Source: a virus. From it: DNA of 64,000 nt. The stretch is from the IMG/VR virus record IMGVR_UViG_3300045988_174698, one strand, 5' to 3'. Below the pieces are notes generated by a model. It was given only the letters and a program-made list of their open reading frames with translations. It did no database searches and had not been told where the DNA came from. Made by a program: the position numbers and the translations under genes. Shown piece by piece: positions 1 through 64,000 of this stretch (the first letter of the stretch is position 1; each line of letters opens with the position of its first letter).

Positions 1-66
1 CTTACTTTTACAAAAGCTGGGTCTTTCCTAGTTTCTAAAGTTCTTGATGTTAACCCAGTAAAATAA
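1..66 (+). CDS. 3' end of an upstream gene (partial; ...LTFTKAGSFLVSKVLDVNPVK, stop TAA 64-66)
   Basis: Open frame from the window edge to a TAA. No function can be inferred. Confidence 0.3.
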   Translation, partial: LTFTKAGSFLVSKVLDVNPVK

Positions 67-79
67 TATATTTTAAGGA

Positions 80-1504
80 ATGAAAAATATTAAACCAGAT
101 ATTGATCTTCAAAATTCAATCGAACGTAGTAGGATTACTGAATCTAGAGAGTATTACAAAGGCAAGTCTTTTAATTTTGCTAAAGAATGGCACCCTGGAA
201 TAAATTATTTTAATGATAATTATATTACTGACTTTGTATCTTATAAAGGAACTTTATTAGTATGCCGTAGAACACATCTTTCTAGTAATAGTAACAGACC
301 TGAGCTACTATTTGAAGATCCAAAAGATTCAAATCAGCCAACTGGAGTAAAATCTGAATATTGAGATTTTATATTGGCTGGAACTCCAGGACCTGGAGGA
401 AAAGTATATATCCCTAACTATAATACATCTACTGGAGAACTTTCTTGAGTTATATCTGATAATATAGAAAGTATTGACCCTGTAAATATAAAAGGGGAGG
501 ACGGTAAAGATGGAAGAGATGGTAAAGATGGAAAGAATGGAACAAATGGAAAAGATGGTGATACTTATGTTCCACAATCAGAGCTTGATAATAACTACAT
601 AGTATTTAAATCTTTACAAGGAAAGGAAACTATTAAAGTAGATTGTAGTAACTTAAAGGGAGAACCTGGAGAGAGAGGTGAAAAGGGTAATGATTGAGTA
701 TTTAGTAAAGTTAATACTATAACATTATCCCCAAATGATAAGGGATATGCAGATATATCTGCAGATACTCCTGGAAGTGAATCAACAACTTATACTTTAA
801 CTTTAGGAATCCCTCAAGGAAAAACAGGTCTTAAGGGGAATAAGGGAGAAAAAGGAGAGAAAGGAGATCAAGGAGAAAAAGGAGAAGCGGGTCCTACCCC
901 TCTTTTTAAACTTATAAGGAATGAGAGTACAAGATCTATAGATTTATATTGATCTATTGATGAAGATTCAGACTGAGTGAATCTAGGAAGTGTTGGGGGA
1001 AAATCTCCAAAGCTATTAAGAGTTTTTGATGTTGCAGAACATCCCAATGTTCAAAATAGTACTAGACGAGATGATCGTATAGTATGGGGGTATGATGGAA
1101 TTTCTGTTAGTGAATGGACAACTCTATGTTATTTAGATGAACTTAGAGGAGATGAGAATATATGAATAAGTACTAAAGAAATTAAGCCAGGTGAAGGCAA
1201 TCCTCCAGTGATGGAAGTTAGAGACCCTAATAATCCTGAAGAGATAATACAAGTAGAAGATAAAGACAAAATATGATATGATCCATTTGATATTAGTTTA
1301 GATGAATTTAGTTCATTTGAATTTGTATTCAATGCTTATAAGGAGGCGGGGGGTCAATTAAGTGAGGATGCTTTTAGAAATACCTTTGCTAAAGTCGATT
1401 TATCTAGTTATTATACTAAAATTGAAGTAGATAAAATTAAACAAGATTTAGAAAAGTTAATCCAAGACACATCGTCTATGGTGTGAAACGATGTTATTAA
1501 TTAA
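80..1504 (+). CDS. tail fibre protein with collagen-like G-X-Y repeats (~474 aa; 7 in-frame TGA=Trp)
   Basis: ATG at 80 with TAA just upstream in frame. Track ORFs 80-364 and 977-1165 share a frame and the gap between them has no TAA/TAG. Gly-X-Y runs are present (GEDGKDGRDGKDGKNGTNGKDGD; GEPGERGEKG; GNKGEKGEKGDQGEKGEAGP). It ends at TAA 1502-1504. Confidence 0.7.
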
Positions 1505-1514
1505 ATTTTAAACA

Positions 1515-2633
1515 ATGGCAAGTGTTATAAAATTTTATAGAGGACTTAGTTCTGATTATAATCCTGTAACCCATGCTGATGGTATTTTCTTTACAACAGA
1601 TACTCATAAAATTATGATGAACGGCTCCGAGTATGGAGGTGATTCTAGTAAGAAAGTATCTGATGTAACATTAAATGAAAATGGCAACGGTATTGTAATT
1701 ACATATACAGATTTATCCACTAAGAATTTAGACTTTGTGAAAGCAAGTTCTTTGGTCGACGGTTTAATGTCAAAAGAGGACAAAGCTAAACTTGATAGTC
1801 TAGATCCTACAGCAAGTGGTTCTTACGAATCTTCATTAGATCCTACAGTAGCAACTGTAGAGAAACTTGGAGGTATTGCGGCAGGTACAACTGTGAAACA
1901 ACTTACAGGTAAGAGTTATGATGAAATCTTTGATACTCTTATCTTCCCAACAGTTAATCCTACATTTACTGCTCCTTCTGCAAGTATCTCTTTAAAGAGT
2001 TATTCAAATATTCAAGAGATTGGAGCTGATGCTCCTACTGCAGCAAACTTTAATGTAGGATTTAATCCTGGAGCAATTACTTTGGCTGGAAAGAAACAGA
2101 ATAATAGAGCTGGCGCACAGGATGTAGAAGCTTCTAAGATTCTTTATGGCTCAACTAAAGTTGAATCTCTTCCATCAAAAGTAACAGCTGGTGCAATGGA
2201 TTATTACTATCGTGCATCTTATGCAGAGGGTCCTCAACCTAAAGATTCAAAGGGAAACAACTATCAAACTCCTCTTGCTGCTGGAAATGTAGATTCTGGA
2301 AAAGTAACTGTATCAGGATATCGTGCAGCTTACTCAGGCTTAGTTTCTACAAATGCAATTACAGAAGATGTTATTAAGGGAATGACCAAAACAGTTTCTG
2401 CAAAGAAGGCTATTAAAGTTTCTGGTCCTATTTCTGAACAATATATCTGTTTTGCAGCTCCAAAAGGGTGGGCAGTTTCAAATATTAAAGACAGTAATAA
2501 CTTTGATGTTACTAGTACATATACAACTAGTACCGTTTCAGTTACTGGTTTAGATGGTCAAGCTGTTAATTACACAGTATATTTATCTGGTAAGATGACG
2601 CAACCTGGTACTTACTATGTAAACTTTAACTAA
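1515..2633 (+). CDS. tail fibre-like structural protein (372 aa, no TGA)
   Basis: Intact ORF in the track. Its N-terminus (KFYRGLSSDYNPVTHADGIFFTTDTHKI) resembles the N-terminus of ORF 3855. Composition is Ser/Thr/Gly-rich and fibre-like. Confidence 0.7.
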   Translation: MASVIKFYRGLSSDYNPVTHADGIFFTTDTHKIMMNGSEYGGDSSKKVSDVTLNENGNGIVITYTDLSTKNLDFVKASSLVDGLMSKEDKAKLDSLDPTASGSYESSLDPTVATVEKLGGIAAGTTVKQLTGKSYDEIFDTLIFPTVNPTFTAPSASISLKSYSNIQEIGADAPTAANFNVGFNPGAITLAGKKQNNRAGAQDVEASKILYGSTKVESLPSKVTAGAMDYYYRASYAEGPQPKDSKGNNYQTPLAAGNVDSGKVTVSGYRAAYSGLVSTNAITEDVIKGMTKTVSAKKAIKVSGPISEQYICFAAPKGWAVSNIKDSNNFDVTSTYTTSTVSVTGLDGQAVNYTVYLSGKMTQPGTYYVNFN

Positions 2634-2635
2634 TC

Positions 2636-3796
2636 ATGGCAGAATATTTTGGTAAAGGTATTTCGGTAGGTTCAGGTTTTGATTTAGGTGCGAATCTACC
2701 ATTAGATAACAGAACGATTCAAGCTACGGTAGCTGATCGTGATGCAATGCCAACAATTCAGTTGGTAGAAGGTCTTTTCGTTTATGTAAAAGAAAATAAG
2801 ACCGCATATATTCTTAAAGGATTTGATCCTGACGGATCTAATCGTGTTTGGGAAACTGTTGCTACAGGAAAAGTAGTTGATATTATTAATTCACTTGAAA
2901 GTGATAGAACAGATGCTGCTCTTTCTGCAGCACAAGGTAAGGCTTTAAAAACTCTTGTAGATGAACTGAAAGCTTCAGTCGCTGCAGCTCTTGACTATAA
3001 GGGTACTAAAGATACCTATGATGCACTTCCTTCAGAAGGAAATAAGAAAGGTGATGTTTGGAATGTAGTAGCTGCTCATGAGGGCACGCCTGCAGGTACA
3101 AATTATGCCTGGGATGGAGCTAAATGGGATCCTCTGGGAGGTACAGTAGATCTTTCAGGTTATTATACAAAGTCACAAGTAGATGATGCAATTTCTGCAG
3201 CAAAAACAGAGCTTAAGGCAGCGGATACAGCTTTAGAAGGACAGATTGCTACTGTTACTAATCAACTTAATAACAAAGTTGATAAAGTTGAAGGATCAGG
3301 TTTAATCTCAGATACAGATTTAAATCAAATTAGAACTAATAAATCTAATATCGAAAGTCTACAAACATCTGTTGGAGGTAAGCAAGAAGCTCTTACTGAG
3401 GGTCAAGCTGTTTCAATTACAGAGGAAAATGTTATTGATGTTAAGTTAGATCCAGCTTCAGATGCAGCCCTATCAAAATCAGCCGAAGGTCTTAAGTTAG
3501 ATCTTAGTGGAGTAAAAGGCTCAACCGTAAAGGTTGGAGTTGCTATTACTGGCGGTGCAGAAATTGGGGCAGATCAAACAATTGCTGCTGGTATGCAAGC
3601 TCTTAGTGATAGTATTAGAACCGCTGTTGCAGGTGGTATTACATCATTAACTAGCCCTGATGAGACTGTTACTGTTACAGGTACAGGTACTTCTAGAGGT
3701 TTAGCTGTAAATATATCTAAATTAGTGTCATCAAGTTCAGCTATCCAAATTGGAGAAGATAACAAGCTTGATTTGTATTGAATGGAAATTGAGTAA
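2636..3796 (+). CDS. tail fibre protein (~386 aa; ends LDLY-W-MEIE with one TGA=Trp)
   Basis: Track ORF 2636-3781 continues through TGA to TAA at about 3794-3796. It has coiled-coil/Ala-rich fibre-like composition. Confidence 0.65.
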
Positions 3797-3854
3797 ATAA
3801 CCTTTCCCACTCCCTCATGAAAATTAGAGGGGGGGGTAAATTTAAAAAAAAAAT

Positions 3855-4061
3855 ATGCAATTAAGTTTTCAAAAAATTACAACAGTTCCAACAAGTGATC
3901 TTGTAGCAGGTAGAATATATTTTGAAACATCAACAGGTATGATTAAAGTAGCAACAAGTGCTACTGATGTTGATAAATTTGGTGATGGTGTAAAATCTGC
4001 GAGTTGAGATGAGGGAGCCAAAACCTTAAAGATTGTAAATGAGAGTGGATATGAAATCTAA
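3855..4061 (+). CDS. 68-aa ORF encoding a fibre N-terminal anchor-like domain, terminated by an in-frame TAA
   Basis: ATG 3855. MQLSFQKITTVPTSDLVAGRIYFETSTGMIKV... parallels the N-terminus of gene 1515. One TGA=Trp. TAA at 4059-4061 lies in the same frame as the downstream fibre ORF. Confidence 0.5.
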
Positions 4062-5459
4062 TTAAATCTTTCAGATGTAGCCTCTGCTTCTGCAGTTACT
4101 ACAGAATTAGCAAAGAAATTAAGTTTAGGATCATCTGGAGATGCTGCAGGTACTCAAAGCTATTATGGTTTAAAGAAAGATATTTCTGCAGCACAGACAG
4201 CTGCTACAAATGCAGCAAAAACATATACAGATGGGGAAATTGCAAAAATTCCCGCAGCTATTGTTTATAAAGCAGATGGCACAACAATTACCCAGAGTGG
4301 AGATAGTACTGTTACTTTTACAGTTGGCACGATTGCTCAGAATAAAGTCACAGGATTAGAAAGTGCACTTGCTAGTAAGGCTTCCACAACAGATCTTAAT
4401 GCAGTAAAAGCTACAGCTGAGGCTGCTGCTCCTCAAGCTACAACATATACTAAAACTGAAGTAGATAATAAGGTATCTGCTGCAGTTGGAAGTGTATATA
4501 AAATGAAGGGTTCTGTAGATGACGCCACAGCTCTTCAAGCTTTAACAGGAGTAGCTATTGGTGATACATATAATGTAATTGCTGCAGGCTCTTTAAATGG
4601 AGAACCTTTTGAAGCAGGCTCAAATTTTGTAGCTATTAAAGCTGGTGCAGGTAATCAAGAAGGAATGTGGGATAAGCTAGGAGGAACCATTGACTTATCT
4701 GCTTATGCTAGAAGCGCAGATGTGGCTAATACTTACGCTACTAAAACTGCAGTAACTTCTGAAATTGCTACTAAAATCGGAACTTTAGACAAAGCTGATA
4801 CTGCTGTCGAAGGTCAGGTTGTTTCTGCAGTTTCTGAAACTGATGGTATTATTACTGTTTCTCGTAGAGCACTTGTAGCAGGCGATATTCCTACTTTAGC
4901 TACTTCTAAAATCTCAGGACTTGATACTGCTCTTAATGGAAAGGTCCCAACTACAAGAACCGTTAATAGTAAATCACTATCAGCTGATGTAGTACTTGCT
5001 GGTACAGATATTCTAGTTGGAGGTGATGGAACATACAGCACTAATAATCTTCAGGAAGCTATTGAAGCTATTGATGGAAGAATTGTCCAGGCGGCTGCAT
5101 CTGGAGTACAGTCATTTGGTGGAAAAACTGGCGCTATTACTGTTAGAGGAGGACAAGCTGCTACTGCTCCTGCGGTTAATTTAACAATGTCAGACAATGA
5201 GCTCCAAGCTGCTGTTATTGGGGTTGCTACCGCTGCACAAGGTGCTAAAGCTGATACGGCTCTTCAGAGTTCCAGTATTACTTCTGGTTCAGTTAATGGT
5301 ACAATTGCTGTCAAAGGATCTAATGTATTTGTCAAAGGTCTAGGCTCCTCAGCATATACTGAAACCTCTGCATTTGACGCTGCTGGTTCCGCAGATTCTG
5401 CTCTTAAGTCTGCAAAAGAGTATGCTGATAATCTAATGGTATGGGCTGAATTTAATTAA
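4062..5459 (+). CDS. tail fibre distal portion; open in frame from 4062 but first ATG only at 4503 (possible readthrough or pseudogene)
   Basis: The same frame as 3855-4061 stays open from 4062 to TAA 5457-5459. It has Ala/Thr-rich fibre composition with no ATG/GTG/TTG in frame before 4503. Confidence 0.5.
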   Translation, partial: LNLSDVASASAVTTELAKKLSLGSSGDAAGTQSYYGLKKDISAAQTAATNAAKTYTDGEIAKIPAAIVYKADGTTITQSGDSTVTFTVGTIAQNKVTGLESALASKASTTDLNAVKATAEAAAPQATTYTKTEVDNKVSAAVGSVYKMKGSVDDATALQALTGVAIGDTYNVIAAGSLNGEPFEAGSNFVAIKAGAGNQEGMWDKLGGTIDLSAYARSADVANTYATKTAVTSEIATKIGTLDKADTAVEGQVVSAVSETDGIITVSRRALVAGDIPTLATSKISGLDTALNGKVPTTRTVNSKSLSADVVLAGTDILVGGDGTYSTNNLQEAIEAIDGRIVQAAASGVQSFGGKTGAITVRGGQAATAPAVNLTMSDNELQAAVIGVATAAQGAKADTALQSSSITSGSVNGTIAVKGSNVFVKGLGSSAYTETSAFDAAGSADSALKSAKEYADNLMVWAEFN

Positions 5460-5466
5460 TAATAAC

Positions 5467-5505
5467 TGGGGATAGAGACTGTATCCCTGTCCCCTTCTTT
5501 TTTTA
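5467..5505 (+). terminator. rho-independent terminator candidate
   Basis: The hairpin GGGGATAGAGACTGTATCCCTGTCCCC is followed by a T-run immediately after the fibre stop. Confidence 0.5.
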
Positions 5506-5517
5506 TACTAGTATATT

Positions 5518-8500
5518 ATGGCAATTAGAAATAAATTTATCCATTTTAAAACTAGGGCTGCATTTAATTCATATTTAGAAACACATGCGGACGATTTATA
5601 TAATTATACAACTTTTATAAAAGAAACAAAAGAAATTTATACTCATGGACAATTTTATAAGTCTAGTAATAAATGGGCTATTTCAAGCCTAACAGGCAAC
5701 TCTGACTATGCAACATTAGCTTATAATAATGGTAAGGTTGGGGATATATTTGACATGTCCTCTGGGACTACTGTTCATGGTATATTAGGTACAATTAATG
5801 ATAAGAAATGATATATATTCTATAAAGATTCTATTAGAGAATATATATATAATACAGATACAAAAAAATTTACAGCAGGAGCTACAATTAATCTTGCTAA
5901 TGACTCTGAAATTCCAGATCCTGCTACTGTGGCTCCTAAAATGGATGGTACAGCTGCTGTAGGATCATCTAATAAATATGCACGTGAAGACCATGTGCAT
6001 CCTTCAGATAATACCAAACAGGATACTCTTGTTAGTGGAGAATCAATTAGAACAATTAACAATCTTTCTTTATTAGGGGAAGGTAATATTAATGTAGGCG
6101 ATGTTCCTTCTATTACAGTAGAACATGAGCAAATACCAAATGAGACAGATTTTAATAGAGTTGCAGAAGCTGCGGCAAATAATAGAGCTGTTTTAATTAG
6201 AATTAAAACTACTGAAATGACGTTAACCTCTAATTATTGACAGTATACCTCTTCAGAATCTCAGAGAGGCTTTGTTGCTTATGCAACATATTTATCAGAA
6301 ACTAATAACATAACTCTGACGGCACATATTATAGAAAATCAACCAGTTATGGTAGAAACTTATGATAAAGAATTACAAGAAGAGTTAGTTTCTGGGACTA
6401 ATATTAAAACTATTAATGGTACTGCTATACTAGGATCAGGTAATATAGACACTCCAGATAGTAAGGTTACTAGTGCTGCTAATCACTATACTCCTGTTGG
6501 AGGAAGTGCTACATCTGGAACTATTATAAATTCTATTACTAAGGATGAGAAAGGACATATTATAGATATAGGGGTTGCTAATGGTATAGATGCTGGTAAA
6601 ATTACCTCGGGAGTTATTGATATTGAGAGATTGCCTAAGGGAGCACTGGAGCGTTTAGTAATAGTTGCAAATAAAGCAGCAAGACTAGCTTTAACCACTG
6701 AACAAGTACAAGAAGGCGATACTGTTAAAGAGAAAGATACAGGTCACATGTATTTTGTTATTGATTCTTCTAAATTAAATAGTGAAGATGGCTACTCTAT
6801 TTATACAGCAGGAGCAGCATCTAGTGTGCCGTGGTCGGGAGTGACAGGTAAACCTGATTTAGTTAACTCGGTTAAGTTAGTACTGCCAAGTTCCATATTC
6901 ATTAATTCTGAAAGTACACTTACAGGAAATGCAGAATTAGGATCATCTTTAAGTACACAAAACGCTAATACAGTATGAGCAGCTCCAAGTGGCACATCTG
7001 GGGTACCAACATTTAGGAAATTAACTTTCCTAGATATGAATACAGTAACGTCAGATGAATTTAACTATATACCACAGACATTTAAAGGAGGAAGGCTAGT
7101 AATTAATTATAAAAACTCTGCTGGGGGTCAAAATACTGACAACACTATAACAGAATACCAATTTGGAGATGGGGCCAGTAATCTTACATACATAACAGCA
7201 AAAGGTTTTAAAACTTCGGAAAATCATGGACACAGGGTACTATGTTCAAATGGGTCTTCCAAATTATTGTATGGACCATCAACTCCTGGAACAGCAGGAC
7301 AAGTATTAATTTCAAATGGGGGATCAGCTCCTGAATGGGGAAAAGTACCTATAACTAGTGTAGGAGGTCCTACTGTTGACACTGCAACTTCTAATACTGT
7401 ACCATATGGAATTACTTCATATATTGGGGAGTACCGTTCTGATAAATTAGCGTTTATAAAGAGCACTGATTTATATGGAGAAATGAGTAAAAACAACGGA
7501 GAATCATGAACTGAAGATCCTCAAGGAAGTAGTAGACTTATAAGTTTATTTACTTCACAAGATAATAAGTATGGTCTACAATTAATAGATACAGAAGATG
7601 TTAGCACAACCACTCAATATAGACTTACTATAAATAATAGTGACAGGTATTGTACTATTGATTGAATATATATATATGTGTCTACTAACGGCTCTGGTTA
7701 TAATTGCTTTATAGAAGCATATAATCCTAGTTCTGAATCTTGAGATATAATATCTCAGGATGCTGTTTTACAGGGGTGATCGGGACCTAATTTTAGAGCT
7801 TTGACATCTTCTATATATTATAACAATTCCCCAAGTACAGCTTCTCAATATTCGAAACTAAGGTTTACATTTTCAACTAAAAGTGTTAGTGAAAACCATG
7901 GCGGACAACTAACAGTCTATAGAATTTCTGGATATGGTACTTATGGCTGGAGAATGCCTAATAATACAGCTAAGGTGGGTCAAATATATTCTTGGGATAA
8001 TGCTCAAAATGTCTCTTTTCCAGGAAGTGTATCGGCTTGAAAATTTATCAGTAATGGGGGTACTAGTACTAATGTAACAATGGGAGATGGATCTCTAAAA
8101 GATCTTAAAACTAAACAACTAGTTGTAAACGGTACTATAAATAATTTTTATTCATCAGATAGTGTTGAGGTTAGACTTTACGCTCCTACTTCAGGTGGTA
8201 CTAGTGGGCAGATTCTTGTATCTAATGGTAATAATGCTCCTAACTGAGCATCCTTAGATAGTTTAGGATATCTACCATTAACAGGAGGTACAATTTCTGG
8301 AAGTTTAAGGGTTAGTGGTCACATTAATCCCGTAAACAATGGAGTTTCAAATATTGGAGAGAGTGGTAAGAAATTTAAGGACATATATGCTACTACTCTT
8401 CATGGAAATTTTAATGAATCTACAACATTTGCAGCACCCCATCCTAACCCAATATATATTGATAATACTAATAATAGTACTGATGGTGTTTATTTAGTAT

Positions 8501-10146: not shown

Positions 10147-10157
10147 TATAATTAGTT

Positions 10158-12389: not shown

Positions 12390-12390
12390 T

Positions 12391-12681: not shown

Positions 12682-12707
12682 TAACATGACGCTAACTATT
12701 CTTTGGT

Positions 12708-12745: not shown

Positions 12746-12765
12746 TATTTTGTATAGTAACGTTA

Positions 12766-15788: not shown

Positions 15789-15820
15789 TTTGGTTATTTA
15801 TTAAATATTATATAATTTTG
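15789..15820 (+). promoter_or_regulatory. Bacteroidota-type promoter candidate (TTTG ~15789-15792; TAatTTTG 15813-15820)
   Basis: TTTG, a 21-nt spacer, then TAnnTTTG, 31 nt upstream of ATG 15851. Confidence 0.45.
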
Positions 15821-17371: not shown

Positions 17372-17403
17372 TTTGGAAATTAAGAATTAATATATTATAT
17401 TTG
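17372..17403 (+). promoter_or_regulatory. Bacteroidota-type promoter candidate (TTTG 17372-17375; TAtaTTTG 17396-17403)
   Basis: Consensus spacing of 21 nt, 54 nt upstream of ATG 17457. Confidence 0.45.
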
Positions 17404-45572: not shown

Positions 45573-45573
45573 T

Positions 45574-47451: not shown

Positions 47452-47453
47452 TT

Positions 47454-55142: not shown

Positions 55143-58100
55143 GTGTGGATACACAATTAAGTATTATCCTCTATTAAGCAGAGTCTTTAATACAAGTACA
55201 GATGAAGAATTTAAATCGTTTTTAGAGGAATATTTTATAGATCCAGATAGTGTATATAGAATGTTCTTGGGTGGGATTTCAACAAATCCTACCCAGACAT
55301 CTATATTTGAACCTAAGAAAATTAGTAGTAGAACTGGATGAGAAGTAAAAACTGATAGTAAATCAGCACAACAGTTTTATATTGGACAGTCTGTTCAATA
55401 TAATAAGATGACAAGTGACTTTGTTAAGAGAATTATATCTTTATCAGTATTTGATCTAGCAAGTGAGCAGTTTATAGATGCTAATAGAAAAGTTGGAGAT
55501 CTAACAGTATTAAATAGAGGTATTTTTGAATACAAAAAGGAGTTGCTATGATATGTATTATCATATTTAGGAAAACCTTCTCCTAATTTGGATAGTATGA
55601 CTGACGTAGATATTGAATCTACTATAGAAAGTACACTATCTGAATTTAGTAGTTATATAAATAATTCTCCTAATCTTGATAATAAATATTATCAAGCTTA
55701 TAATTCATATGTAACTCTTAGAACATTTGACGATCTATTAAAGCAATTAACACCATTTGTCTCTATTAATCCAGAATATAGTAAGTCTTCAATATATTCT
55801 AGAAATAGATATATTTATAATGGTCCTAATGTTACTCACTATACAGGATTTAGTACTAATGAATTTATGTCTCAAGAAGAAAGTGTTAGTGACCTTGCTA
55901 AGATACTCTTAAATTATCTTCCAGAAGTTAATATAAATGGAGATATTATTGATGGGACCTCTATTTCGTTATCTGGGTTTAATTCTGTAATGGGGAAGAT
56001 GAAATTATGAGCTGAAGAAAGTTCTAATCCAGAAGTAAAAGAAGAGCTTAAGAAAGGAACTAAAATGGATGTTAGTAAGCTCATATCTTTATATGAACAA
56101 GAACTATCTAACAGAAAAGTTTCTAATCCTGAGCATATAACTTATTTAAGATCAAAGTTATCAGCTATAAAAAGATTTATATATGACTCTAAAATGCATG
56201 AGGATATTAAAGACATGTTTACACATCTAATGGAAAAAACTGTTCTCTCAAGTTATGTTAGTTATGAGCAGAAAGATGGTAAAAGCATGGAAGTTAGAAA
56301 TCTAACACAACGTCCTATTAAAATGCAAAGAGAAGCAATAGTAGAAACAGTAAAGGCTATTACTCAATATTGAAAGCAAAATAGATCTAGATTTAATGAG
56401 TTACTTAGGAAGTATAATGTTAGAGGTATAGGTTCTGTTATATCTATTGGAGATAGTAGAATTACATTAGAGGGAAATGGAAAAATATCTATTACTGGTC
56501 CTATAAGTAATTTTAATGAAATAGTTGGGGACTTTGTTAATTTATTAATATCAGATGATTTTGATCAGGTAGCTAGTCAAGTATTTCCAAATAGTAACTA
56601 TACTAAGTATGAGTTATATGCTCCTGTATTAGGAACTGTAATTTTTGATGTTATCAACAACAGTAATACTAATCTCAATTTTGGACAGAGTAATGATTTA
56701 GGTAGAGTACTCAGTGTTATTAATGGATCAGATACAGTTAATGTCATTAAAAATGCAGAAGGTAATAACTTACCATTATATCAGATGATTTGTTTAAGTT
56801 ATCAACATAATGGTGTTTTTAATGAAATTAGTAAACAGATTGATGATAAAGATCTATATATGTCACAGTATCATGACAATGCTGTATATAAAAATATACA
56901 ACATGTCAAAAGTCCTAAAATTCGATCAGAAGTAACTATTAATGGAGTTACAAAGCAATCTTCTGCTCTTACAGCAAATGACGTTATGCACTTATCTATT
57001 GTATATGACTTTTATCAAGGCCTAACTATGGATCAATCTCATACTGAAGGATCTAGGTCTAAATCAGGAATTGTTGGTATTCAAAGTCATGTATATTCTG
57101 ATAAGAATAAACACTTTGTAATGCAGTTTGATTTAAATCAAACATGAGATTTTGGCAACGGTAATTCATTTAATATCAAATCTGTCCTAGATCAGTACTT
57201 TAAATCTGGAAATGAAATTGATTTAGAACCTATAAAGAAAGCTTGGTTTGAAAGTAATAAATCTCAGATAGAGAGTGTGATAGAAACTATTCTATCAGAT
57301 TATAGACAAGTATATCCAAATAAAGAATTTAATTCTATACATGATATTAAGGTATTCTTAGCTAAGAATAAAATAAATAAGGTTAGGGAAGATTTTGCTA
57401 GAGCTAATGTTGAATTTATTGATGAAATACATGCATCTAAAACTAAAGCAGGATGAGTGTTTAATGAAACTTTAGAAAATTTTGCTAATATATTTAGTAA
57501 TAGAGATAAGTTTAATGAGTTTTACAAAAGTCAGTTTACTAAATTTTTAGAGGATAGTTCTGGAGCTTGGTCCACTATTTCAGTAGATCAAAATATTGTT
57601 AACTCTTTTAAACAGAATAATCCTAAATTTGTAAAGGATGGTAAACTTCTCAAAGAAGTTAATGGGGTTATTAATCCTTTATTAGGTGCTTATTTTATTA
57701 CCGATTCATTTCTATCAAATGAATATAATAAAATGATGGTCGGAGATGTCTATGCTCACCCTAATAAAGAAAAAGAAAGTCCTACCACAAATGGATATCT
57801 AGATCATAGTCTAGCTTCTAGATGAATATCTCAGGTAAAACGTATGGTTATTTATGGAGCTACATATCATTCTCTCGCACAAGGTTTAAAAAATGGAGTG
57901 CCAGAAAGAGTTAAAATGGCTGTTATGTCTGATATGGGATCAAATGTAAGTAACATATCTGGAATGTCTAGTACTGTAGATTCTATGGATGGTTCAGGTT
58001 ATACTAGTCCATTTATGTCTAGATGAGAGAATGTATCTCTTATAGACGCTGCAGTAGGAGCTAACAAGAAAACTATCTTTCATGATGTTGATGCTAAACA

Positions 58101-61100
58101 CGGACTACCGAAATTACTTAAATGGGCTGAATATGAGATAACTAATGCTATCAGAAGAAATAGTTCTGATACTAGTATGGAAAACATCTTCAAGAAAATG
58201 CACAGTTTGGAATTGCCTTTAGATGTTACCATAGATTATGACAAGCAATTTGATGATCTATTCTTTAGGGATAATGTCAGTGGAAAATATTATAAAATAT
58301 TACATATTAATATCTCAAATAATGTAGCTCATAGAGAATTAGTTGAAGTTACTAAAGAAGGTGTTCCTATTAATCCTGATAATATTATTACTAATGATAA
58401 GCTAATTAAAAGTATATATGATATAGATCAAACATTTGGTGGTGCATGAGCTATGAAAATAGATAATCGTACCAATAATCTTCAGTATTCAGAACATAAT
58501 CTAGATTATACTAATCAAATTATTTGTGATTATGATCTTAAAGATTCTATGATTAGTTGGTTGGTAAATAAGTCAGCTATTAAAGTTGGAGCTTCAAATA
58601 TTAATGATGTAACTTCTTGAAATGATGGTACTCCATTATTATTTACTACAATGTCTACTAAGTTTGGAGGTGTTCAAATGAATGCTGATCATGAACTTGA
58701 TGAAGCAGAGGTAACTGAAATGACTCAAATGATTAGTGGTCTTGAACAAAACGGATATACTCATCATTTAGCAACACGAGTTTATGAAGAAATTGGTAAA
58801 TTCTGTTATGATGCTATTAGTAAAATTCAGGATATTATTTATAATGGAAATAAGGATGATCTTTACAAAATATTTGGAAAAGCTGTTATTAACGCATTTG
58901 CTGGCGGTAGTAAGGATACTCTAGGTTTAGCTCAGTCCTTTGTAAAACTTGCTCAGGAAGGACTAGAAAATAATAATTTAGAATATAGAATACCTTTTAG
59001 TTCTTCATCTATCAATGGCATTTTTAACTCTACAGTCACATCCTCTCTAGTAAGAGATGCGATTAGGCGTCACTACAATGGTGTTGCGGCAGTATTAAAT
59101 CCCTCATATAATGTAGTTCAATATCATACAATTAATGGTAACAATTATCGATATGAAGAATTAATAGATTTAATTGCAGAAGCTACAAGAGGTACAACTT
59201 ATGAGGGAATGACCGTAGATGATGCTGTAAATAAAGTTTTTGTTGTTGATACAAATGGAAATGTGGTTGTAAATCCATTTATTGATGATATTACTCCAGA
59301 TAACCCAGTAGATTTTGAGGATACTATTATCGTATGAGGAGAAAATAATCAAGTAGTAAAAATAGATAAAATAGATAGTTACAATAAATATATATACTAT
59401 CGATTATATGAGCCTGGGCGTATTAGTAGGTGGACAACTAAAGCTAAAAATCTTAAAGGATCAGATACTACTTTTGTAGCTAATGGACGTAAATATAGTA
59501 TGTTTGAAAGTCCTTATACTCAGGTGCTTCATTATTTTATTGAAAGTGATAGTAGTGCTACTAATATAGAGACCCTTAGAGATGAGCTACGTAGTGAAGT
59601 AATAAAATCAATACCTAATGAAAGAGCTGATGAAAATGTTATAGAGAATATAGTAAATAGCAGATTACAACTTATAGTAAATGAAATTACTCCATTTATG
59701 CCAAAAGGATTTACAGAAAAAACTTCATTTACAAAATATATTCCTAATATTAAAAAAGCTTTAATCAAAAAGCAGCAATCTGTTCTTAATAATTTAGCTG
59801 ATGGTAAGCCTATTGATTGAGGAGGATTAATGTTAAATGCTACAGAGTATAAAGTTATCCCAGCACAGATTATTATGGGTAAGCTTTATGCTAAAGAGTT
59901 AGGATTGCTTCCTGGTGATTCTATTGCTAAAATTAAGGAACAAGGTCCAGAGTTCTTTATAAATAGAATTGATGGCTACTACAATTTCTATGATAATGCA
60001 GATGAGTTAACTTATGACTGAACTTTATTTGATGGTGCAGGAAATAAGTTATATGTTAAACTTAGAAATCCTAAGATTAATGAACTGTTTACTAATTCAT
60101 CTTTAGATTCTGATTATAAGATTATTGATGGTTCAGTATACTTTAATGGTAATGAAATCTGCTCTTCTGAAGGAAAACAATTCTTAAAATATACTGATTC
60201 TGATAATGTTCAACATAATGTAGTTATTATTGATTCAATAGATAGACTCAAAGAGTTAGAAAATTCTAAGATGTTTACCTATACTCATAGAAATTATAGA
60301 ATTGATAACTATGTTGACTTAGTAAAAGAAGAGTTTGGAGAAGGAACATCTATTCAATTAACTTACCGACCAACTGGAAGTAGAAAATATACTACTAGTA
60401 ATATTGCTGAATTTAATGATAAACTTGAAATAATTCGAGCATTAGCTGAAAATCAAGATTATAATTGAACTAAACAAATTAGAAAATTAGCAGAAAATAA
60501 GTATAAATCTTTTGAAAAGAGTTTATATTTTGTTGGTACACGTATTCCTTGTCAGTCTATGCAATCGTTTGCTCCTATGGAAATTATTACATTTACTGAT
60601 AGTGAAGTAAATGAGGTATACGTTCCGACACAAATTTTCTACTTGGAAGGATCTGACTTGGATAAACTTTCTATGTTCAAGTAAAACTCTTTTAATTGCT
60701 GGAAACCCCTAACGTAAAGACGAGGGCAATCAGCAGCCAAGCCGTAACAAAACGGAAGGTTCAACGACTAATATTAATAACTTAATAATTCGACTTTAAT
60801 AGTATGAAACAGTTAAAAACACATTTAAATAAAATAGGAAGAAATTTAATAATTGCTATGTCTATAGGGGATGGGCATATAGCTAAAAAAGGATATTTAG
60901 ATATAAATCATTGTGAAGCTCAGAAAGAGTATTGTTTATGAAAATGGCAACTTTTAAAAGATAATGGAGTTAAAGTTGGCACGTTTAGAGAATGAAAACA
61001 AATAAATGGATATTCTAAAGGTAAAGAAGTAACTAAATATGGATTTCAAACAACAGTACTTGATTTTTGTAAAGTACTTAGACGAGTTGAATATGAGTAC

Positions 61101-64000
61101 GGAAAAACTAAATATAATAAAAAGTTACTTAAGCGACTTGGAGCTCAAGGGTTAGCAATATGAATAATGGATGATGGAGCATTACTTCGTAGATCTAAAA
61201 CAAATAAAGATGGAATACGAACATATTCAGGATTTTATATTACAATATCTACGTATTGTCCATTAGAGCAAGCTAATGATATTATAGAATATTTTAATGA
61301 AGAATGAGATATTTATCCGACTAAGGTTTTTGATAAAAGGCAGCAATCCTATATAATTAATTTTTGTGCCAGAGAAGGTAGAAAATTAATAGAAATTATA
61401 AAACCTTATATGTGTCCCCACATGATGTATAAGGTTCTTCCTGATAAAATAGAATGTGAAAACTACATGAAGTTATTAAAAGAAACAGCTGAAACTGCTG
61501 TTGAAGGTACACTAGAAATAGTGGAAATGGAGAGCGCGAAAGCGAAGATATAGTCTGATCTATATAGAAATATATAGTTAACACAATTGATAGATAAACA
61601 ATATATCCTTGGCTATTCATTATCATCTAATGGTCGTATTAATACTGATGAAAACTCAGCACCTTATTTACGAGCTGATGCATTAAGAAATAGAGTTGTA
61701 GATGGTGTATTTAGTATTATTCTTAATCCTAGAAACCAAATTAACTTAACAATGCCAGTAACTACTGATCGAATGCAAAGTCTTGCTAAAAGATCTAAAA
61801 TGGGTGAAGCTGCTAAATATATGAGTCCTTACAATCCAGCAAGTAAGTACTTAATGCAGATTCAAAATATGGTTGGTAAAGCAGTTATTGGTAATGTTGC
61901 TACGGCATTAAAAAGTTTCTTTGCCTTAAGCAACGTATATAATACCAAGTTTAGAGAGATTAATGAAGCAATTCAAACTGGTAATTTTGATATAGCTAGA
62001 ACGATGTTAAAAAGATATACATTTATCCATAATGATAGACTAATAACATTAGCTAATGTTAATATGGAAGTATTTGAGAGTCTACCTGAAAATACTCCTG
62101 AAGATATTAGACAAACTCTAGCTCAAGTAATTAGTTATGAGGATGCCTTAGATGATCAATCTATGGTACTTGGAGAACTTTTAAATAGTGCTACTGATTT
62201 TTTCATCAGAAAATTATTGAATAACTTGCCTATATTAATTTTTATTATTATCTTTGCACTATAGATAAAAATAATTTAAAACAAATTAATATGGCAAAGA
62301 AATTAACAAATGAAGAAGTTGAAAAACTTCATAAAATGTATTTAGAAGGAATGACTTGTGAAGAAATTGGAAAACTTACAGGTCATAAAACAGAAACAGT
62401 ATCTAAATATCTAAAAGAGAATTATGATATAAAGCCTCAAAGAAAAATTGATTTAGTAATTTTATCAAAACTAGCAAAAGAGGGAAAAACAACTAAAGAA
62501 ATGGCAGAATATTTTAATGTACATCCTTCTGCTATATGCTATTGAAAAAAGTATTTTAATGAAGGAGATCTAAAGATTTCGCACCCTTTTTTGCAAGAAG
62601 ATCATCAATTATCTCATCTACAAGAACAAATGATTCTTGGCAGTTTATTAGGAGATATGAACATAGGAAAACCTAGAAAACATCATCCTACTTGTAGATT
62701 ATCCTTAGTACACTCAATTAAACAAAAAGAATTATTTATGAAGAAAGTAGAAATTCTTGGAGAATTTATGAGTAATTATAGAGAATATAGTTATTTAGAT
62801 AATAGAACAAATAAAATATATTCTACTATAAGAGGAAATAGTAAATCTCATAAAGTATTTAATGATATGTATAATAAACTATATATTAATGATATTAAAA
62901 CAATTACTAAAGAATATTTAGATATGATTAATCATCCAATAGCATTAGCTTACTGATTTATGGATGATGGAACGAATTCTGGACAAATAGCTACAAATTG
63001 TTTTTCTTTTGAAGAGGTTAAATTACTATCGAATTGACTAGAAAACAAATTTGGTATTATTACAACAATGCACAAAAATTTAAGAAATTATACTTTATAT
63101 ATAGTTGCTAGCTCTAGATTTGAATTTGATAATTTAATTTCTCCTTATATTATTCCTTCTATGAAATACAAATTAAAATTTTCTGAAATAGCAGAGTCAG
63201 TTAACTCCGTGAAAACGGGAAAGCCCTTAGAGATTTAAATACTAAACTATTATAGTAATATGATAGTGGCTAAGCTAATCACTTAGATATAGTAATAAGT
63301 TTAAATATTGGGTAATCCGTTACTAAGCTTCCTAATAGGAAGAAAGTTCAACGACTATCGAAATGCAGAAATGACAGAGTAGAGTAGAACTTAAGTAAGT
63401 TCGAAGTGCGGAGATCCTGTATAGGATAAGATATAGTCTGAACTCATAGGAAACTATGAGAGAACTTATGGAAACGATAAGTTCGTAACAAAATTGAATG
63501 CAAAGGAATTAATCCTTAAAAAAATTAATGCAGATACAAACTGGGTAGATATTTATACTATTTCTCTTATGTTAGGTGAATCACTAGATGAAATTGGTAA
63601 TTTAATGATTGATGATGATATAACAGAACTAGTAAATGATTTTACTACTAGTATGTTTAGTGATGAACAGAACTATGATAAAGTTCGTTATGTTGCTGAT
63701 AAAGCATATACCTCTGAAGGAGAGAAAAAAGAGAAATATCTACAATTGCTGGATAAAGTTATATCTGCGGATGAAGTACGTATCTTAGGAAAGATACTTA
63801 AAATTAATCAAGGTCTTCCTACAAACACTTCTGATTTATATAGTTATATTAAATCTATTGAAAAATATATAGAAAGTAGGTTTAATAGACAAATACTAGA
63901 AAAACAAGAAGAATATTTAAGAATTGAAAAGGAGTTAGAAAAAACTTGATTAACTCCTGAAAAGAAGGAAATATTAAAAGAGGAACGAAGATTACAAAAA
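55132..64000 (+). CDS. giant gene (exon 1 ~1850 aa with ~11 TGA=Trp) interrupted by two group I introns; continues beyond the window
   Basis: Eleven track ORFs from 55132 to 60468 are all in frame 1, with TGA-only junctions. Exon 1 is in frame to AAG 60679-60681, then a TAA. Exon 2 is at about 61575-62262 (LTQLIDKQYILGY...FIIIFAL). Exon 3 starts at about 63450-63477 and is open to the window end. Splice sites are approximate. Confidence 0.5.
60682..61574 (+). mobile_element. group I intron 5 with double-motif LAGLIDADG homing endonuclease gene
   Basis: Core elements are P TTAATTGCTGGAAACCCC (60692), Q CAATCAGCAGCC, R GTTCAACGACTAAT and S AAGATATAGTCTGA (~61543). An in-frame TAA lies at the 5' end and a TAG at about 61572-61574 before exon 2. 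The 5' splice site may lie about 15 nt upstream. Confidence 0.6.
60804..61553 (+). CDS. LAGLIDADG homing endonuclease (double motif, ~249 aa; 4 TGA=Trp)
   Basis: Motif 1 is LIIAMSIGDGHI and motif 2 is LAI-W-IMDDGAL, where the Trp is a TGA. The ORF ends at the TAG inside the S element. Confidence 0.75.
62263..63470 (+). mobile_element. group I intron 6 with LAGLIDADG homing endonuclease gene located upstream of the ribozyme core
   Basis: There is no P/Q at the 5' end. The core lies downstream of the ORF, with a P6-like hairpin CTTCC-TAAT-AGGAAG, R AAGTTCAACGACTATCG (~63340) and S AAGATATAGTCTGA (~63430). Boundaries are approximate. Confidence 0.5.
62291..63238 (+). CDS. LAGLIDADG homing endonuclease with N-terminal HTH extension (~315 aa; 3 TGA=Trp)
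   Basis: The N-terminal HTH is MAKKLTNEEVEKLHKMYLEGMTCEEIGKLTGHKTETVSKYL. Motif 1 is ILGSLLGDMNIG and motif 2 is LAY-W-FMDDGTN. I counted the codons through to TAA 63236-63238. Confidence 0.75.

What the first reader, a model, noticed from the sequence alone, without database searches (positions are those of the whole stretch)
1..64000. Genome-wide TGA=Trp recoding (code 4) in a crAss-like, Bacteroidota-type phage
The ORFs in the track are bounded almost exclusively by TGA. Each successive ORF sits in the same frame as its predecessor, and the intervening sequence has no TAA or TAG. Examples are seven ORFs in frame 1 across 5518-10146, seven in frame 0 across 47454-55142, and eleven in frame 1 across 55132-60681. 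TGA falls exactly where Trp is expected in repeated modules. The homing endonucleases show GGYLWSD with TGG beside GGYQWS-[TGA] and AGGFQ-[TGA]-RVY. A LAGLIDADG motif reads LAI-[TGA]-IMDDG, and a membrane helix reads GG-[TGA]-FIWVIFLFFLMG-[TGA]-GGNG-[TGA]-G. TAA and TAG terminate genes. Standard-code annotation therefore turns 4-8 kb genes into 60-600-aa fragments. The promoter motifs point to a Bacteroidota host. No Bacteroidota is known to use code 4, so the phage presumably supplies its own suppressor machinery from outside this window.
Basis: partly seen in the sequence, partly recalled or inferred. Interest (0 to 1): 0.8.

Follow-up and report, generated by a model that had tools for sequence, protein, structure and literature searches.

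The report
TGA-as-tryptophan crAss-like gut phage
This window is the virion-gene block of a large (about 168 kb) Zeta-group crAss-like gut phage that reads the stop codon TGA as tryptophan, a phenomenon already described for this phage group; the tRNA that probably does the reading lies outside the window and is hidden from standard tRNA finders by an intron.

Summary
With TGA as a sense codon, + strand ORFs of at least 600 nt cover 56.4 kb of the window, against 29.5 kb under table 11. Making TAG or TAA sense gains nothing. The 41 genes hold 133 in-frame TGA and 80 TGG. All end in TAA or TAG.

TGA means Trp. A syntenic standard-code relative (MT835470) has TGG at 11 of 32 aligned TGA sites and Gly at 1. 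TGA and TGG interchange freely among closer relatives.

The phage is a Zeta-group crAss-like phage: muzzle, ring and capsid profiles match, genomes are 167-169 kb, and its lineage includes OLVX01000015. TGA-to-Trp recoding of late genes in this group is published (Yutin 2021; Borges 2021/22; Zeta paper 2025), so the finding is correct but already known. Public gene calls already use code 4.

By tiling the rest of the genome from near-identical contigs I found the likely suppressor. It is a tRNA-Trp-like gene with anticodon UCA, split between anticodon positions 34 and 35 by a 609-633 nt group-I-like intron that encodes an endonuclease. It also carries a conserved extra hairpin whose loop mimics the CCA anticodon loop. 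TGA use switches on at this gene. I found no report of such a tRNA.

The MCP and RNA polymerase genes in the window are also split by introns.

The parts
80..12389 (+). Six tail-fibre-like genes: 80-1504, 1515-2633, 2636-3796, 4503-5459, 5518-10146 and 10158-12389. Together they hold 25 in-frame TGA.
   Evidence: PHROG tail-fibre and collagen-repeat hits. Phage_fiber_rpt and Collagen on the identical products in public contigs. Three paralogues end in the same motif...W-x-E-[IF]-[EN]. The W is TGA in two (80-1504, 2636-3796) and TGG in one (4503-5459).
12852..13766 (+). Gly/Trp-rich membrane protein (phrog_16490). Three of its Trp codons are TGA and three are TGG.
   Evidence: PHROG hit at 6e-55. 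Codons checked.
18583..23720 (+). Major capsid protein gene in 5 exons: 18583-19146, ~20107-20403, 20641-20928, 22120-22281 and 23592-23720. It has no TGA and 8 TGG.
   Evidence: tblastn of the unsplit 475-aa MCP of MT835470 maps residues 1-192, 185-287, 285-380, 378-433 and 434-475 onto these pieces. The spliced product hits Pfam Crass_capsid at E=7.5e-5, 21.7 bits, below the cut-off of 27. P(0 of 8 TGA) = 4e-4 at the window-wide ratio.
19147..20106 (+). MCP intron 1: group I intron with a GIY-YIG homing endonuclease ORF (19328-20056, 1 TGA).
   Evidence: Rfam Intron_gpI 44.5 bits, E=3e-9, at 19112-19406, plus a 3' piece at 20059-20091. Pfam GIY-YIG is weak. The 34-nt core at 19262-19295 is identical to sequence in 146-151 kb Escherichia, Salmonella and Campylobacter phage records.
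20378..20640 (+). MCP intron 2: ORF-less group I intron.
   Evidence: Rfam Intron_gpI 73.4 bits (gathering score 50), E=1e-16, at 20378-20598.
20929..22119 (+). MCP intron 3: group I intron with a GIY-YIG/NUMOD endonuclease ORF (21169-22071, 2 TGA).
   Evidence: Intron_gpI 41.5 bits, E=3e-8, at 20910-21154, plus a 3' piece at 22078-22110. NUMOD1 and I-HmuI_NUMOD-like domains.
22282..23591 (+). MCP intron 4: group I intron with a GIY-YIG/NUMOD endonuclease ORF (22466-23545, 1 TGA).
   Evidence: Intron_gpI 39.1 bits, E=1e-7, at 22295-22568. NUMOD1 at 9e-25, plus GIY-YIG.
27646..28335 (+). Tail ring protein (3 TGA).
   Evidence: Pfam CrAss_Ring_1 28 bits, cut-off 27. The same family is recorded on the orthologues in L007-L009.
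29331..32975 (+). 1214-aa virion protein with 16 TGA and 5 TGG.
   Evidence: The N-terminal 105 aa are 60% identical to the syntenic ORF of MT835470.
32975..37723 (+). Crassvirus muzzle protein, 1582 aa, 12 TGA.
   Evidence: Pfam crAss_MUZ at 1.2e-31, 110 bits. There are 1992 homologues; the best is 99% identical and full length. It is 36% identical over 1203 aa to MT835470.
41235..55142 (+). Three large proteins placed where crAss-like phages encode virion cargo/transcription-block proteins: 41235-45572 (16 TGA), 45574-47451 (3 TGA) and 47454-55142 (2562 aa, 14 TGA).
   Evidence: Synteny with MT835470. AAA_19/AAA_30 are recorded on the 2563-aa and 2608-aa orthologues. The cargo role is inferred from position only.
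55132..64000 (+). RNA-polymerase-like giant gene in at least 3 exons: 55132-60663, 61590-62198 and 63497 onward past the window end. Its DxDxD motif reads DLD|ID across the first junction.
   Evidence: Single unsplit ORFs of 2977 and 3077 aa in relatives L098 and L100 align contiguously to the three pieces, at residues 1855|1856 and 2069|2070. A DxDxD motif split by insertions is described for Zeta RNAP genes in PMC7886860.
60664..61589 (+). RNAP intron 1 with a LAGLIDADG endonuclease ORF (60804-61553, 4 TGA).
   Evidence: Pfam LAGLIDADG_2 at 9e-19. Absent from L090, L098 and L100. Its 5' end shares sequence with MCP intron 1. No Rfam group I hit.
62199..63496 (+). RNAP intron 2 with an HTH + LAGLIDADG endonuclease ORF (62291-63238, 3 TGA).
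   Evidence: Pfam LAGLIDADG_2 at 7e-35, plus HTH_38 and HTH_23. Absent from L098 and L100. No Rfam group I hit.
15789..15820 (+). Candidate Bacteroidota-type promoter (TTTG-N-TAnnTTTG). Similar sites lie at 17372-17403 and 40766-40797, each in an intergenic gap just upstream of a gene.
   Evidence: The pattern has 8 matches against 3.5 expected, and 4 of 100 shuffles reach 8. Consensus match only; weak evidence.

Best explanation
The window is the late (virion and virion-packaged polymerase) block of a roughly 168 kb Zeta-group crAss-like phage. In this block UGA is translated as tryptophan, while UAA and UAG terminate.

The most likely decoder is a phage-encoded tRNA that lies outside the window, in the early block. 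It derives from tRNA-Trp and has anticodon UCA. Its gene is interrupted between anticodon positions 34 and 35 by a mobile, group-I-like intron of 609-633 nt that encodes an endonuclease. The tRNA can therefore exist only after transcription and splicing.

Genes upstream of the tRNA gene avoid TGA and can be read by the unmodified host machinery. Genes downstream (replication genes, then the whole late block, including the homing endonucleases) contain TGA and yield full-length protein only once the suppressor has accumulated. This makes the code change a translational timer.

Shown:
- TGA = Trp in the late genes.
- The split tRNA gene exists, and its cloverleaf covaries among variants.
- TGA usage changes at the tRNA gene.

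Inferred:
- The intron splices.
- The tRNA is charged with Trp.
- The code change has a timing role.
- The host identity.
For: ORF restoration is specific to TGA, with 133 TGA and 80 TGG in frame and a normal Trp frequency.

Codon comparisons (residue-level tally):
- Against standard-code MT835470, window TGA aligns with TGG at 11 of 32 sites and Gly at 1.
- Against L008: TGG 14, TGA 10.
- Against L009: TGA 20, TGG 7.
- Window TGG aligns with relatives' TGA 3-7 times.

Paralogous motifs in the window use TGA and TGG interchangeably.

Tiling. The lineage genome was tiled completely from overlapping contigs at 94-100% nucleotide identity. Default tRNA scans find only 9 tRNAs, none with UCA.

The split tRNA. 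Intron-aware ARAGORN finds tRNA(UCA) at L203 11243-11969, in OLVX01000015.
- The same exons occur in 11 of 13 loci of the lineage, with two intron forms.
- Diverged forms occur in more distant relatives.
- Across seven variants, 95% of cells pair and 16 of 27 pairs show changes on both sides. That includes 6 of 7 acceptor-stem pairs, which join the two exons. 0 of 500 shuffles reach this, and slid controls score 0.10-0.12 against 0.52.
- Its closest matches among 188 distinct phage tRNAs are tRNA-Trp(CCA), and its anticodon arm and G73 resemble tRNA-Trp.

Switch in TGA use. In L203 ORFs, the 11 kb upstream of the gene hold TGA 1 and TGG 28. The 9 kb downstream hold TGA 19 and TGG 18. Fisher P = 2e-5.

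Literature. Late-gene TGA-to-Trp recoding with suppressor tRNAs is described for this group in PMC7886860, PMC12386605 and 10.1101/2021.08.26.457843.
Against: - No protein or RNA data, so decoding as Trp rests on alignments.
- The tRNA gene was read in near-identical genomes of the lineage, not in the contig the window came from.
- The intron is not confirmed as group I. Rfam gives no hit for the ORF-bearing forms and only 16.4 bits, E=0.12, for the ORF-less form. No intron-less allele was seen.
- The tRNA has an unusual 22-26 nt extra arm, and ARAGORN labels it 'SeC'.
- A few ORFs upstream of the tRNA gene contain TGA (for example L166 3304-4182 with 4, and L128 5897-6511 with 3), so the early/late separation is not clean.
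- No TrpRS or release factor was found, but only 11 early ORFs were scanned, plus regions with precomputed Pfam.
Confidence: 0.85

Rival explanations
1. TGA encodes glycine (code 25), or another amino acid such as Cys, Sec or Ser, rather than Trp.
For: Code 25 phages exist. ARAGORN calls both UCA tRNAs 'SeC', and both carry a long extra arm like type II tRNAs.
Against: Opposite window TGA, Gly occurs 1 of 32, 3 of 53 and 4 of 55 times. TGG occurs 11, 14 and 7 times and is the only strongly enriched sense codon. TGA+TGG gives a normal 1.08% Trp content. TGA sits at the W of conserved endonuclease and fibre motifs where paralogues use TGG. The split tRNA is most similar to tRNA-Trp. 133 sites with no shared downstream element do not fit Sec.
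Confidence: 0.02
2. The host itself uses code 4, and the phage simply follows it; no phage-driven code switch is involved.
For: Published host predictions for the related opal-suppressing Zeta genomes are empty or name Holdemanella and Faecalibacillus, low-GC Firmicutes.
Against: The 11 kb of early genes just upstream of the tRNA gene use TGG 28 times and TGA once, which implies translation where UGA still stops. Close relatives use the standard code (MT835470) or TAG recoding (MT835492). The phage carries its own UCA tRNA. Shine-Dalgarno motifs are absent (3 of 41), which does not fit Firmicutes or Mollicutes.
Confidence: 0.04
3. UGA is read without a dedicated phage suppressor. Near-cognate reading by host tRNA-Trp(CCA) would follow phage inhibition of RF2 or modification of host tRNA. 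The split tRNA gene would be a disrupted relic.
For: Only 35% of code-4 phages have a detectable suppressor, and 4 of 5 opal Zeta genomes have none listed. The intron is not confirmed as self-splicing. The phage encodes other translation factors, namely IF3 here and tmRNA in relatives.
Against: Both halves of the tRNA are kept with compensatory changes across the intron, which a relic would not show. The gene is present in 11 of 13 loci. TGA use begins at the gene. 14-16 UGA per gene would need very efficient read-through.
Confidence: 0.08
4. The in-frame TGAs are assembly or sequencing artefacts, or they mark decaying pseudogenes.
For: None beyond the fragmented table-11 ORFs.
Against: The same proteins occur on hundreds of independent contigs. 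One window protein is indexed in 220 blocks of the collection, on contigs up to 169 kb. TGA positions are conserved in relatives (52 of 62 in L007). TAA and TAG are absent in frame over 19,757 codons.
Confidence: 0.01

Closest known systems
Zeta-group crAss-like phages (Yutin et al. 2021, PMC7886860; proposed family Echekviridae, PMC12386605)
   Same: - Genome of 167-169 kb, within the published 145-192 kb range.
- Late genes recoded TGA to Trp.
- Standard-code, TAG-recoded and TGA-recoded members at short distances.
[quoted passage not shown]
- RNAP gene broken inside the DxDxD motif.
- tRNA genes at the start of the early block.
- The lineage includes OLVX01000015, which both papers treat as Zeta.
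   Different: Nothing essential for the window itself. In PMC12386605, no UCA suppressor is listed for 4 of the 5 opal-suppressing genomes of this clade. Here a split one is found.
Stop-codon recoding as a lytic-cycle timer (Borges et al., 10.1101/2021.08.26.457843)
   Same: - Standard-code early genes.
- A suppressor tRNA encoded ahead of the recoded genes.
- Recoded structural genes.
- Homing-endonuclease ORFs that also carry in-frame TGA.
   Different: No TrpRS/RF1 'code change module' was found. Replication genes downstream of the tRNA are also recoded. The most abundant structural protein (MCP) avoids TGA completely.
Bacterial group I introns in tRNA anticodon loops (cyanobacterial and plastid tRNA-Leu(UAA) intron; from my own knowledge)
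   Same: - Insertion between anticodon positions 34 and 35.
- The 5' exon ends in U and the intron ends in G.
- Variants occur with and without endonuclease ORFs.
   Different: - The host gene is a suppressor tRNA of a phage.
- The Rfam group I model scores only 16 bits on the ORF-less form.
- Self-splicing is not shown.
tRNA-Trp(UCA) of code-4 organisms (Mycoplasma, mitochondria; from my own knowledge) and phage tRNA-Sup(TCA) such as that of phage Lera (PMC12386605)
   Same: A tRNA-Trp-like body with C34 changed to U, reading UGA. G73 discriminator.
   Different: - The gene is split.
- A conserved extra arm has a loop, CUCCAAA, that copies the tRNA-Trp(CCA) anticodon loop, and its stem covaries.
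- A second, unrelated 91-nt UCA tRNA occupies the same locus in other relatives.

Membership tests
Crassvirales, Zeta group | Crassvirus-specific virion proteins (muzzle, ring, major capsid) | tested here: met
   crAss_MUZ 110 bits (cut-off 27) on the 1582-aa product. CrAss_Ring_1 28 bits (cut-off 27). Crass_capsid only 21.7 bits (cut-off 27) on the spliced MCP.
Crassvirales, Zeta group | Genome of about 145-192 kb | tested here: met
   Contigs carrying identical window proteins are 167,850 and 169,073 bp. Close relatives are 167,649 and 168,412 bp.
Crassvirales, Zeta group | Placement with recognised Zeta genomes | tested here: met
   The early block of the lineage is 97-98% identical to OLVX01000015.1, which PMC12386605 cites as a Zeta TerL source from Yutin 2021. 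No TerL tree was built.
Crassvirales, Zeta group | Giant RNAP-like protein with DxDxD motif | tested here: inconclusive
   The sequence reads DLD|ID across the exon 1/2 junction, and orthologues are single ORFs of about 3000 aa. No profile or structure comparison with a known RNAP was made, and Pfam finds nothing.
Genetic code 4 in a phage (TGA = Trp) | Long ORFs restored only when TGA is sense | tested here: met
   56.4 kb against 29.5 kb. TAG-sense and TAA-sense give 30-32 kb.
Genetic code 4 in a phage (TGA = Trp) | TGA aligns with Trp (TGG) in homologues that use the standard code, and not with Gly | tested here: met
   MT835470: TGG 11 of 32, Gly 1. Closer relatives show TGA/TGG interchange.
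Genetic code 4 in a phage (TGA = Trp) | A tRNA with anticodon UCA | tested here: met
   None in the window. One is present, intron-split, in the early block of the same lineage.
Genetic code 4 in a phage (TGA = Trp) | Trp found at UGA positions in the proteins | not testable with these tools
   Needs metaproteomics.
Group I introns | Match to the catalytic core (Rfam RF00028) | tested here: met
   MCP introns score 73.4 bits (above the gathering score), 44.5, 41.5 and 39.1 bits, with E from 1e-7 to 1e-17.
Group I introns | The same test for the tRNA intron and the two RNAP introns | tested here: inconclusive
   tRNA intron: no hit for the ORF-bearing form; 16.4 bits, E=0.12, full-length alignment, for the ORF-less form. 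RNAP introns: no hit, but precise absence from relatives.
tRNA-Trp | Cloverleaf with G73 and an anticodon arm like tRNA-Trp; closest relatives are tRNA-Trp | tested here: met
   The two best matches among 188 distinct phage tRNAs are Trp(CCA). Alignment. Covariation.
tRNA-Trp | Charged by TrpRS with tryptophan | not testable with these tools
   Needs an aminoacylation assay.

The most novel reading that the evidence does not exclude
The suppressor of this lineage may be an undescribed kind of tRNA with two unusual features.

First, it is a tRNA-Trp(UCA) whose gene is split by a mobile group-I-like intron. This would explain why most code-4 phages appear to lack a suppressor, and it would make the code switch depend on RNA splicing.

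Second, its 'variable arm' is a selected copy of the tRNA-Trp CCA anticodon stem-loop. The loop CUCCAAA is invariant, while the stem shows compensatory changes at 5 of its 6 pairs. This arm may present the cognate anticodon to the host TrpRS, so that a tRNA reading UGA is still charged with Trp.
Probability: 0.2. Interest if true: 0.75.

Novelty: already known. Interest (0 to 1): 0.35.

Why it matters
For the window itself the lesson is practical. Table-11 annotation shreds these genes, and code 4 together with intron-aware gene models is needed to read this very common gut phage. Public pipelines are inconsistent here: some contigs of the same phage are called with code 4 and others with code 11.

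The wider point concerns an acknowledged gap. Suppressor tRNAs are 'missing' from about 65% of TGA-recoded phages. In this lineage the tRNA is present but split by an intron. A systematic intron-aware rescan could therefore close much of that gap. It would also show whether splicing adds a control step to the code switch.

Tried and rejected
- Nucleotide search of GenBank phages found only a 34-nt intron-core match. Close relatives are absent from that collection apart from MT835470 and MT835492.
- PHROGs gave nothing for the capsid-region proteins.
- Default ARAGORN and Rfam tRNA scans of the window and about 150 loci found no UCA tRNA in the window's own lineage.
- An 'anticodon (tg)' tRNA-like gene in relatives, and a pseudo-tRNA next to tRNA-His, were examined and rejected as suppressors.
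- A motif scan for YTTCARN loops flanked by 5-bp stems found nothing, because the loop is split.
- A scan of bacterial genomes returned only two small, distant contigs and gave no host clue.
I therefore could not read the tRNA region on the window's own contig.
- Lowering ARAGORN thresholds with introns allowed gives many false calls inside coding regions. Only the UCA call recurred across loci and covaried.
- No TrpRS, RF1 or RF2 was found among the early ORFs scanned or in the precomputed Pfam lists.
Full report

Yes. The window is 31% G+C, with positive GC and AT skew throughout. All credible genes lie on the + strand.

Stop-to-stop ORFs of at least 600 nt on the + strand cover different amounts depending on which codon is made sense:
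- Table 11: 29.5 kb
- TGA sense: 56.4 kb
- TAG sense: 30.2 kb
- TAA sense: 31.8 kb

The code-4 map is a tightly packed array of 41 genes. It includes genes of 4.6, 3.6, 4.8, 4.4, 7.7 and 5.6 kb.

Within these genes there are 133 in-frame TGA, 80 TGG, and no TAA or TAG over 19,757 codons. Terminators are TAA (31) and TAG (10). TGA+TGG makes up 1.08% of codons, an ordinary tryptophan content.

Every quoted motif has exactly the codons claimed.

**2. What does TGA encode?**

The closest GenBank phage is MT835470 (human faeces). It is syntenic over the whole structural block at 25-60% amino-acid identity, and it uses the standard code.

I masked window TGA as X before alignment. At the codon level MT835470 then has TGG at 11 of 32 aligned TGA sites and Gly at 1. 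This matches the conservation of the window's own TGG codons (10 of 27).

Three closer relatives fetched from public assemblies also need TGA as sense. They show free interchange:
- Window TGA against TGG: 14 times in L008 and 7 times in L009.
- Window TGG against TGA: 3 and 7 times.

Inside the window, paralogous motifs use both codons. Three tail-fibre genes end in ...W-x-E-[IF]-[EN], with W as TGA twice and TGG once. The GIY-YIG and LAGLIDADG endonucleases do likewise.

Code 25 (Gly), selenocysteine and artefact are therefore excluded for practical purposes.

A second GenBank relative, MT835492, instead needs TAG as sense: 38.6 kb of long ORFs against 2.4 kb. All three coding states thus occur in this clade.

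**3. What phage is it?**

Profile matches:
- The 1582-aa product of 32975-37723 matches the Crassvirus muzzle protein (110 bits).
- 27646-28335 matches tail ring protein 1 (28 bits).
- The spliced capsid gene matches Crass_capsid weakly (21.7 bits, below the cut-off of 27).

Identical window proteins sit on contigs of 167,850 and 169,073 bp and are indexed in 220 blocks of the collection. The early block of the lineage is 97-98% identical to OLVX01000015.1, 168,412 bp. PMC12386605 cites that record as one of the Zeta-group genomes of Yutin et al. 2021.

Yutin et al. describe for this group exactly what is seen here:
- Genomes of 145-192 kb.
- TGA-to-Trp or TAG-to-Gln reassignment, mostly in late genes.
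- Code switches at short phylogenetic distance.
- RNAP genes broken inside the DxDxD motif.

The 2025 Zeta paper and the Borges et al. preprint describe the same coding behaviour.

Many public gene calls for this phage already use code 4. Examples are the 1542-aa and 1582-aa products. The finding is therefore correct but already known.

**4. Host**

Shine-Dalgarno-like motifs are almost absent upstream of the 41 starts: 3 of 41, against a 15% background. The Bacteroidota promoter pattern TTTG-N17-23-TAnnTTTG occurs 8 times against 3.5 expected. Three of these hits are in intergenic gaps just upstream of genes. This fits a Bacteroidota host but does not prove one.

Published predictions for the opal-suppressing Zeta clade are empty or name Holdemanella and Faecalibacillus. 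A scan of bacterial genomes gave no clue.

**5. Split genes inside the window**

The major capsid gene (18583-23720) is in five exons, mapped with the unsplit MT835470 protein. All four interruptions match the group I intron model, at 73.4, 44.5, 41.5 and 39.1 bits. Three of them carry GIY-YIG/NUMOD endonuclease ORFs.

The RNA-polymerase-like gene starting at 55132 is in at least three exons. Relatives have it as one ORF of about 3000 aa.
- The first interruption (60664-61589, with a LAGLIDADG ORF) falls inside DLD|ID.
- The second (62199-63496) carries an HTH-LAGLIDADG ORF.
- Neither matches Rfam's group I model.

The endonuclease ORFs themselves contain TGA. The capsid gene has none among its 8 Trp codons (P = 4e-4).

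**6. Where is the suppressor?**

The window has no tRNA. I tiled the rest of the genome from overlapping pieces of near-identical contigs. These were IMG/VR 3300045988_159576, OLVX01000015 and several ENA/Logan contigs. Overlaps are 94-100% identical and the circle closes.

Default scans find nine tRNAs in the early block and no UCA anticodon:
- Leu-UAA and Leu-UAG
- two CAU
- Gln, Thr, His, Asn
- Ser-UGA

This agrees with the literature's 'missing suppressor'.

Intron-aware ARAGORN then found a tRNA with anticodon UCA at L203 11243-11969:
- Exon 1: AGGAGCTTAGTGTAATGGTAGCACAGCGGTCTT
- Intron: 633 nt, with an HNH-like ORF that itself contains 2 TGA
- Exon 2: CAAAACCGTAAACGGGAGCCTCCAAAACTCCAGGTGAGGGTTCGAATCCTTCAGCTCCTGC

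The insertion lies between anticodon positions 34 and 35. The 5' exon ends in U and the intron ends in G.

The same exons occur in 11 of 13 loci of the lineage, with a 609-nt or a 633-nt intron. Diverged versions occur in more distant relatives, with introns of 605, 707 and 1244 nt and an ORF-less intron of about 440 nt.

Across seven variants the cloverleaf is strongly supported:
- 95% of cells pair.
- 16 of 27 pairs change on both sides.
- 0 of 500 shuffles reach this.
- Slid controls score 0.10-0.12 against 0.52.

Six of the seven acceptor-stem pairs covary, and these pairs join the two exons. The halves must therefore work as one molecule.

The spliced tRNA is closest to tRNA-Trp(CCA) among 188 distinct phage tRNAs. 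It shares G73 and the CU-NCA-AA loop context with tRNA-Trp.

The intron is only weakly recognisable as group I. The ORF-less form scores 16.4 bits, E=0.12, and the ORF-bearing form gives no hit. Self-splicing is therefore inferred, not shown.

**7. An unexpected feature of that tRNA**

Between the anticodon arm and the T arm lies a 22-26 nt extra arm. Its loop is CUCCAAA (UUCCAAA in one variant), which is the anticodon loop of tRNA-Trp(CCA).

The stem changes with compensation among variants:
- GGAG/CUCC
- CUGG/CCAG
- GUAGGG/CCCUAC
- GGAAG/CUUCU
- GGGGU/ACUCC

Five of the six stem pairs show changes on both sides.

Rfam's tRNA model can even align this hairpin as the anticodon arm, at 20 bits, below threshold.

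I can only speculate about its role. One idea is that it offers the cognate CCA anticodon to the host TrpRS. I found no paper describing either the split suppressor or this arm. Absence from this library is not proof of novelty.

**8. Position effect**

In L203, ORFs in the 11 kb upstream of the tRNA gene hold TGA 1 and TGG 28. ORFs in the 9 kb downstream hold TGA 19 and TGG 18 (Fisher P = 2e-5).

Further downstream, the replication genes (helicase, DnaB, primase, RNR, PolA) and the whole late block are recoded.

This fits the published model in which the suppressor is made from standard-code-compatible DNA and then unlocks the recoded genes. The separation is not perfect, because a few ORFs nearer the start of the early block contain TGA.

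No TrpRS or release factor was found among the ORFs scanned. An IF3 homologue is encoded at the end of the early block, and relatives carry tmRNA genes.

**9. Verdict**

The phenomenon and the phage group are already in the literature, so the finding itself ranks low for novelty.

The part worth following up lies outside the window. It is an intron-split, tRNA-Trp-derived UCA suppressor with an anticodon-loop-like extra arm. It offers a concrete, testable explanation for suppressors that seem to be missing from recoded phages.

Noticed in passing
L203 11243-11969 (OLVX01000015.1); also L201, L202, L212-L214, L218, L219, L221, L222, L224, L179, L112: tRNA with anticodon UCA, split between anticodon positions 34 and 35 by a 609-633 nt intron carrying an endonuclease ORF. 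Default ARAGORN and Rfam do not see it. The cloverleaf covaries across 7 variants.
   Followed up: yes
L203 11918-11943 (within exon 2 of that tRNA): An extra arm whose loop, CUCCAAA, copies the tRNA-Trp(CCA) anticodon loop. The loop is invariant and the stem covaries. Its function is unknown.
   Followed up: partly
L180 12162-12252 (also L172, L182, L185, L186, L188, L189, L196); L178 12952-13759: A second, unrelated 91-nt tRNA with anticodon UCA sits at the same locus in other relatives. In L178 it is interrupted at the anticodon loop by about 600 nt related to the 3' part of the same intron, so the intron appears to home into UCA-tRNA genes.
   Followed up: partly
L002 (MT835492.1) and L001 (MT835470.1): Two GenBank relatives that are unannotated and labelled UNVERIFIED. 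MT835492 needs TAG as sense (38.6 kb against 2.4 kb of long ORFs). MT835470 uses the standard code.
   Followed up: partly
window 18583-23720: The major capsid gene uses TGG for all 8 Trp codons, while the window overall uses TGA for 62% of them (P = 4e-4). The most abundant virion protein avoids the recoded codon.
   Followed up: partly
window 19262-19295: A 34-nt stretch inside MCP intron 1 is 100% identical to unannotated sequence in 146-151 kb Escherichia, Salmonella and Campylobacter phage records. It is probably a conserved group I intron core.
   Followed up: no
L090 17265-17771 (-): The phage encodes a full-length translation initiation factor IF3 homologue (IF3_N 2e-9, IF3_C 2.5e-32) at the end of the early block, without TGA.
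   Followed up: partly
L133 13487-13890, L136 13951-14357, L137 17257-17635, L143 15695-16073 and others: tmRNA genes with tag peptides ending in ...LMAA or ...VLAA in related Zeta phages. The window's closest relative shows only a weak partial tmRNA match (L166 1326-1424, 16.7 bits).
   Followed up: no
L111 9530, L166 17529, L203 20829: ORFs that follow endonuclease-bearing insertions begin with the same peptide, KALEIT.... This is probably the conserved 3' end of one intron family read in frame. The helicase, RNR, PolA and other early genes are also split.
   Followed up: no
L212-L224 against L003-L009: Public gene calls for the same phage are inconsistent. Long contigs are called with code 4 (1542-aa and 1582-aa products). 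Many shorter ones are called with table 11 and show fragments, for example a 108-aa plus a 211-aa helicase piece.
   Followed up: no
L166 17894-20348 and 16123-16773: The early block carries a class II glutamine amidotransferase, an Amidoligase_2 protein, a Peptidase_C26/GATase, a GMP reductase/IMPDH-like enzyme and an HD-domain protein. All are TGA-free and of unknown role.
   Followed up: no
L166 5895-5965: A degenerate tRNA-like sequence (Rfam tRNA 31.7 bits, partial) next to a run of nine G, beside tRNA-His. It sits where relatives have tRNA-Lys(UUU).
   Followed up: partly
window 80-1504, 2636-3796, 14858-15277, 39070-39963: In four genes the last TGA lies only 3-5 codons before the TAA/TAG stop. 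Under the standard code these proteins would be nearly full length.
   Followed up: no
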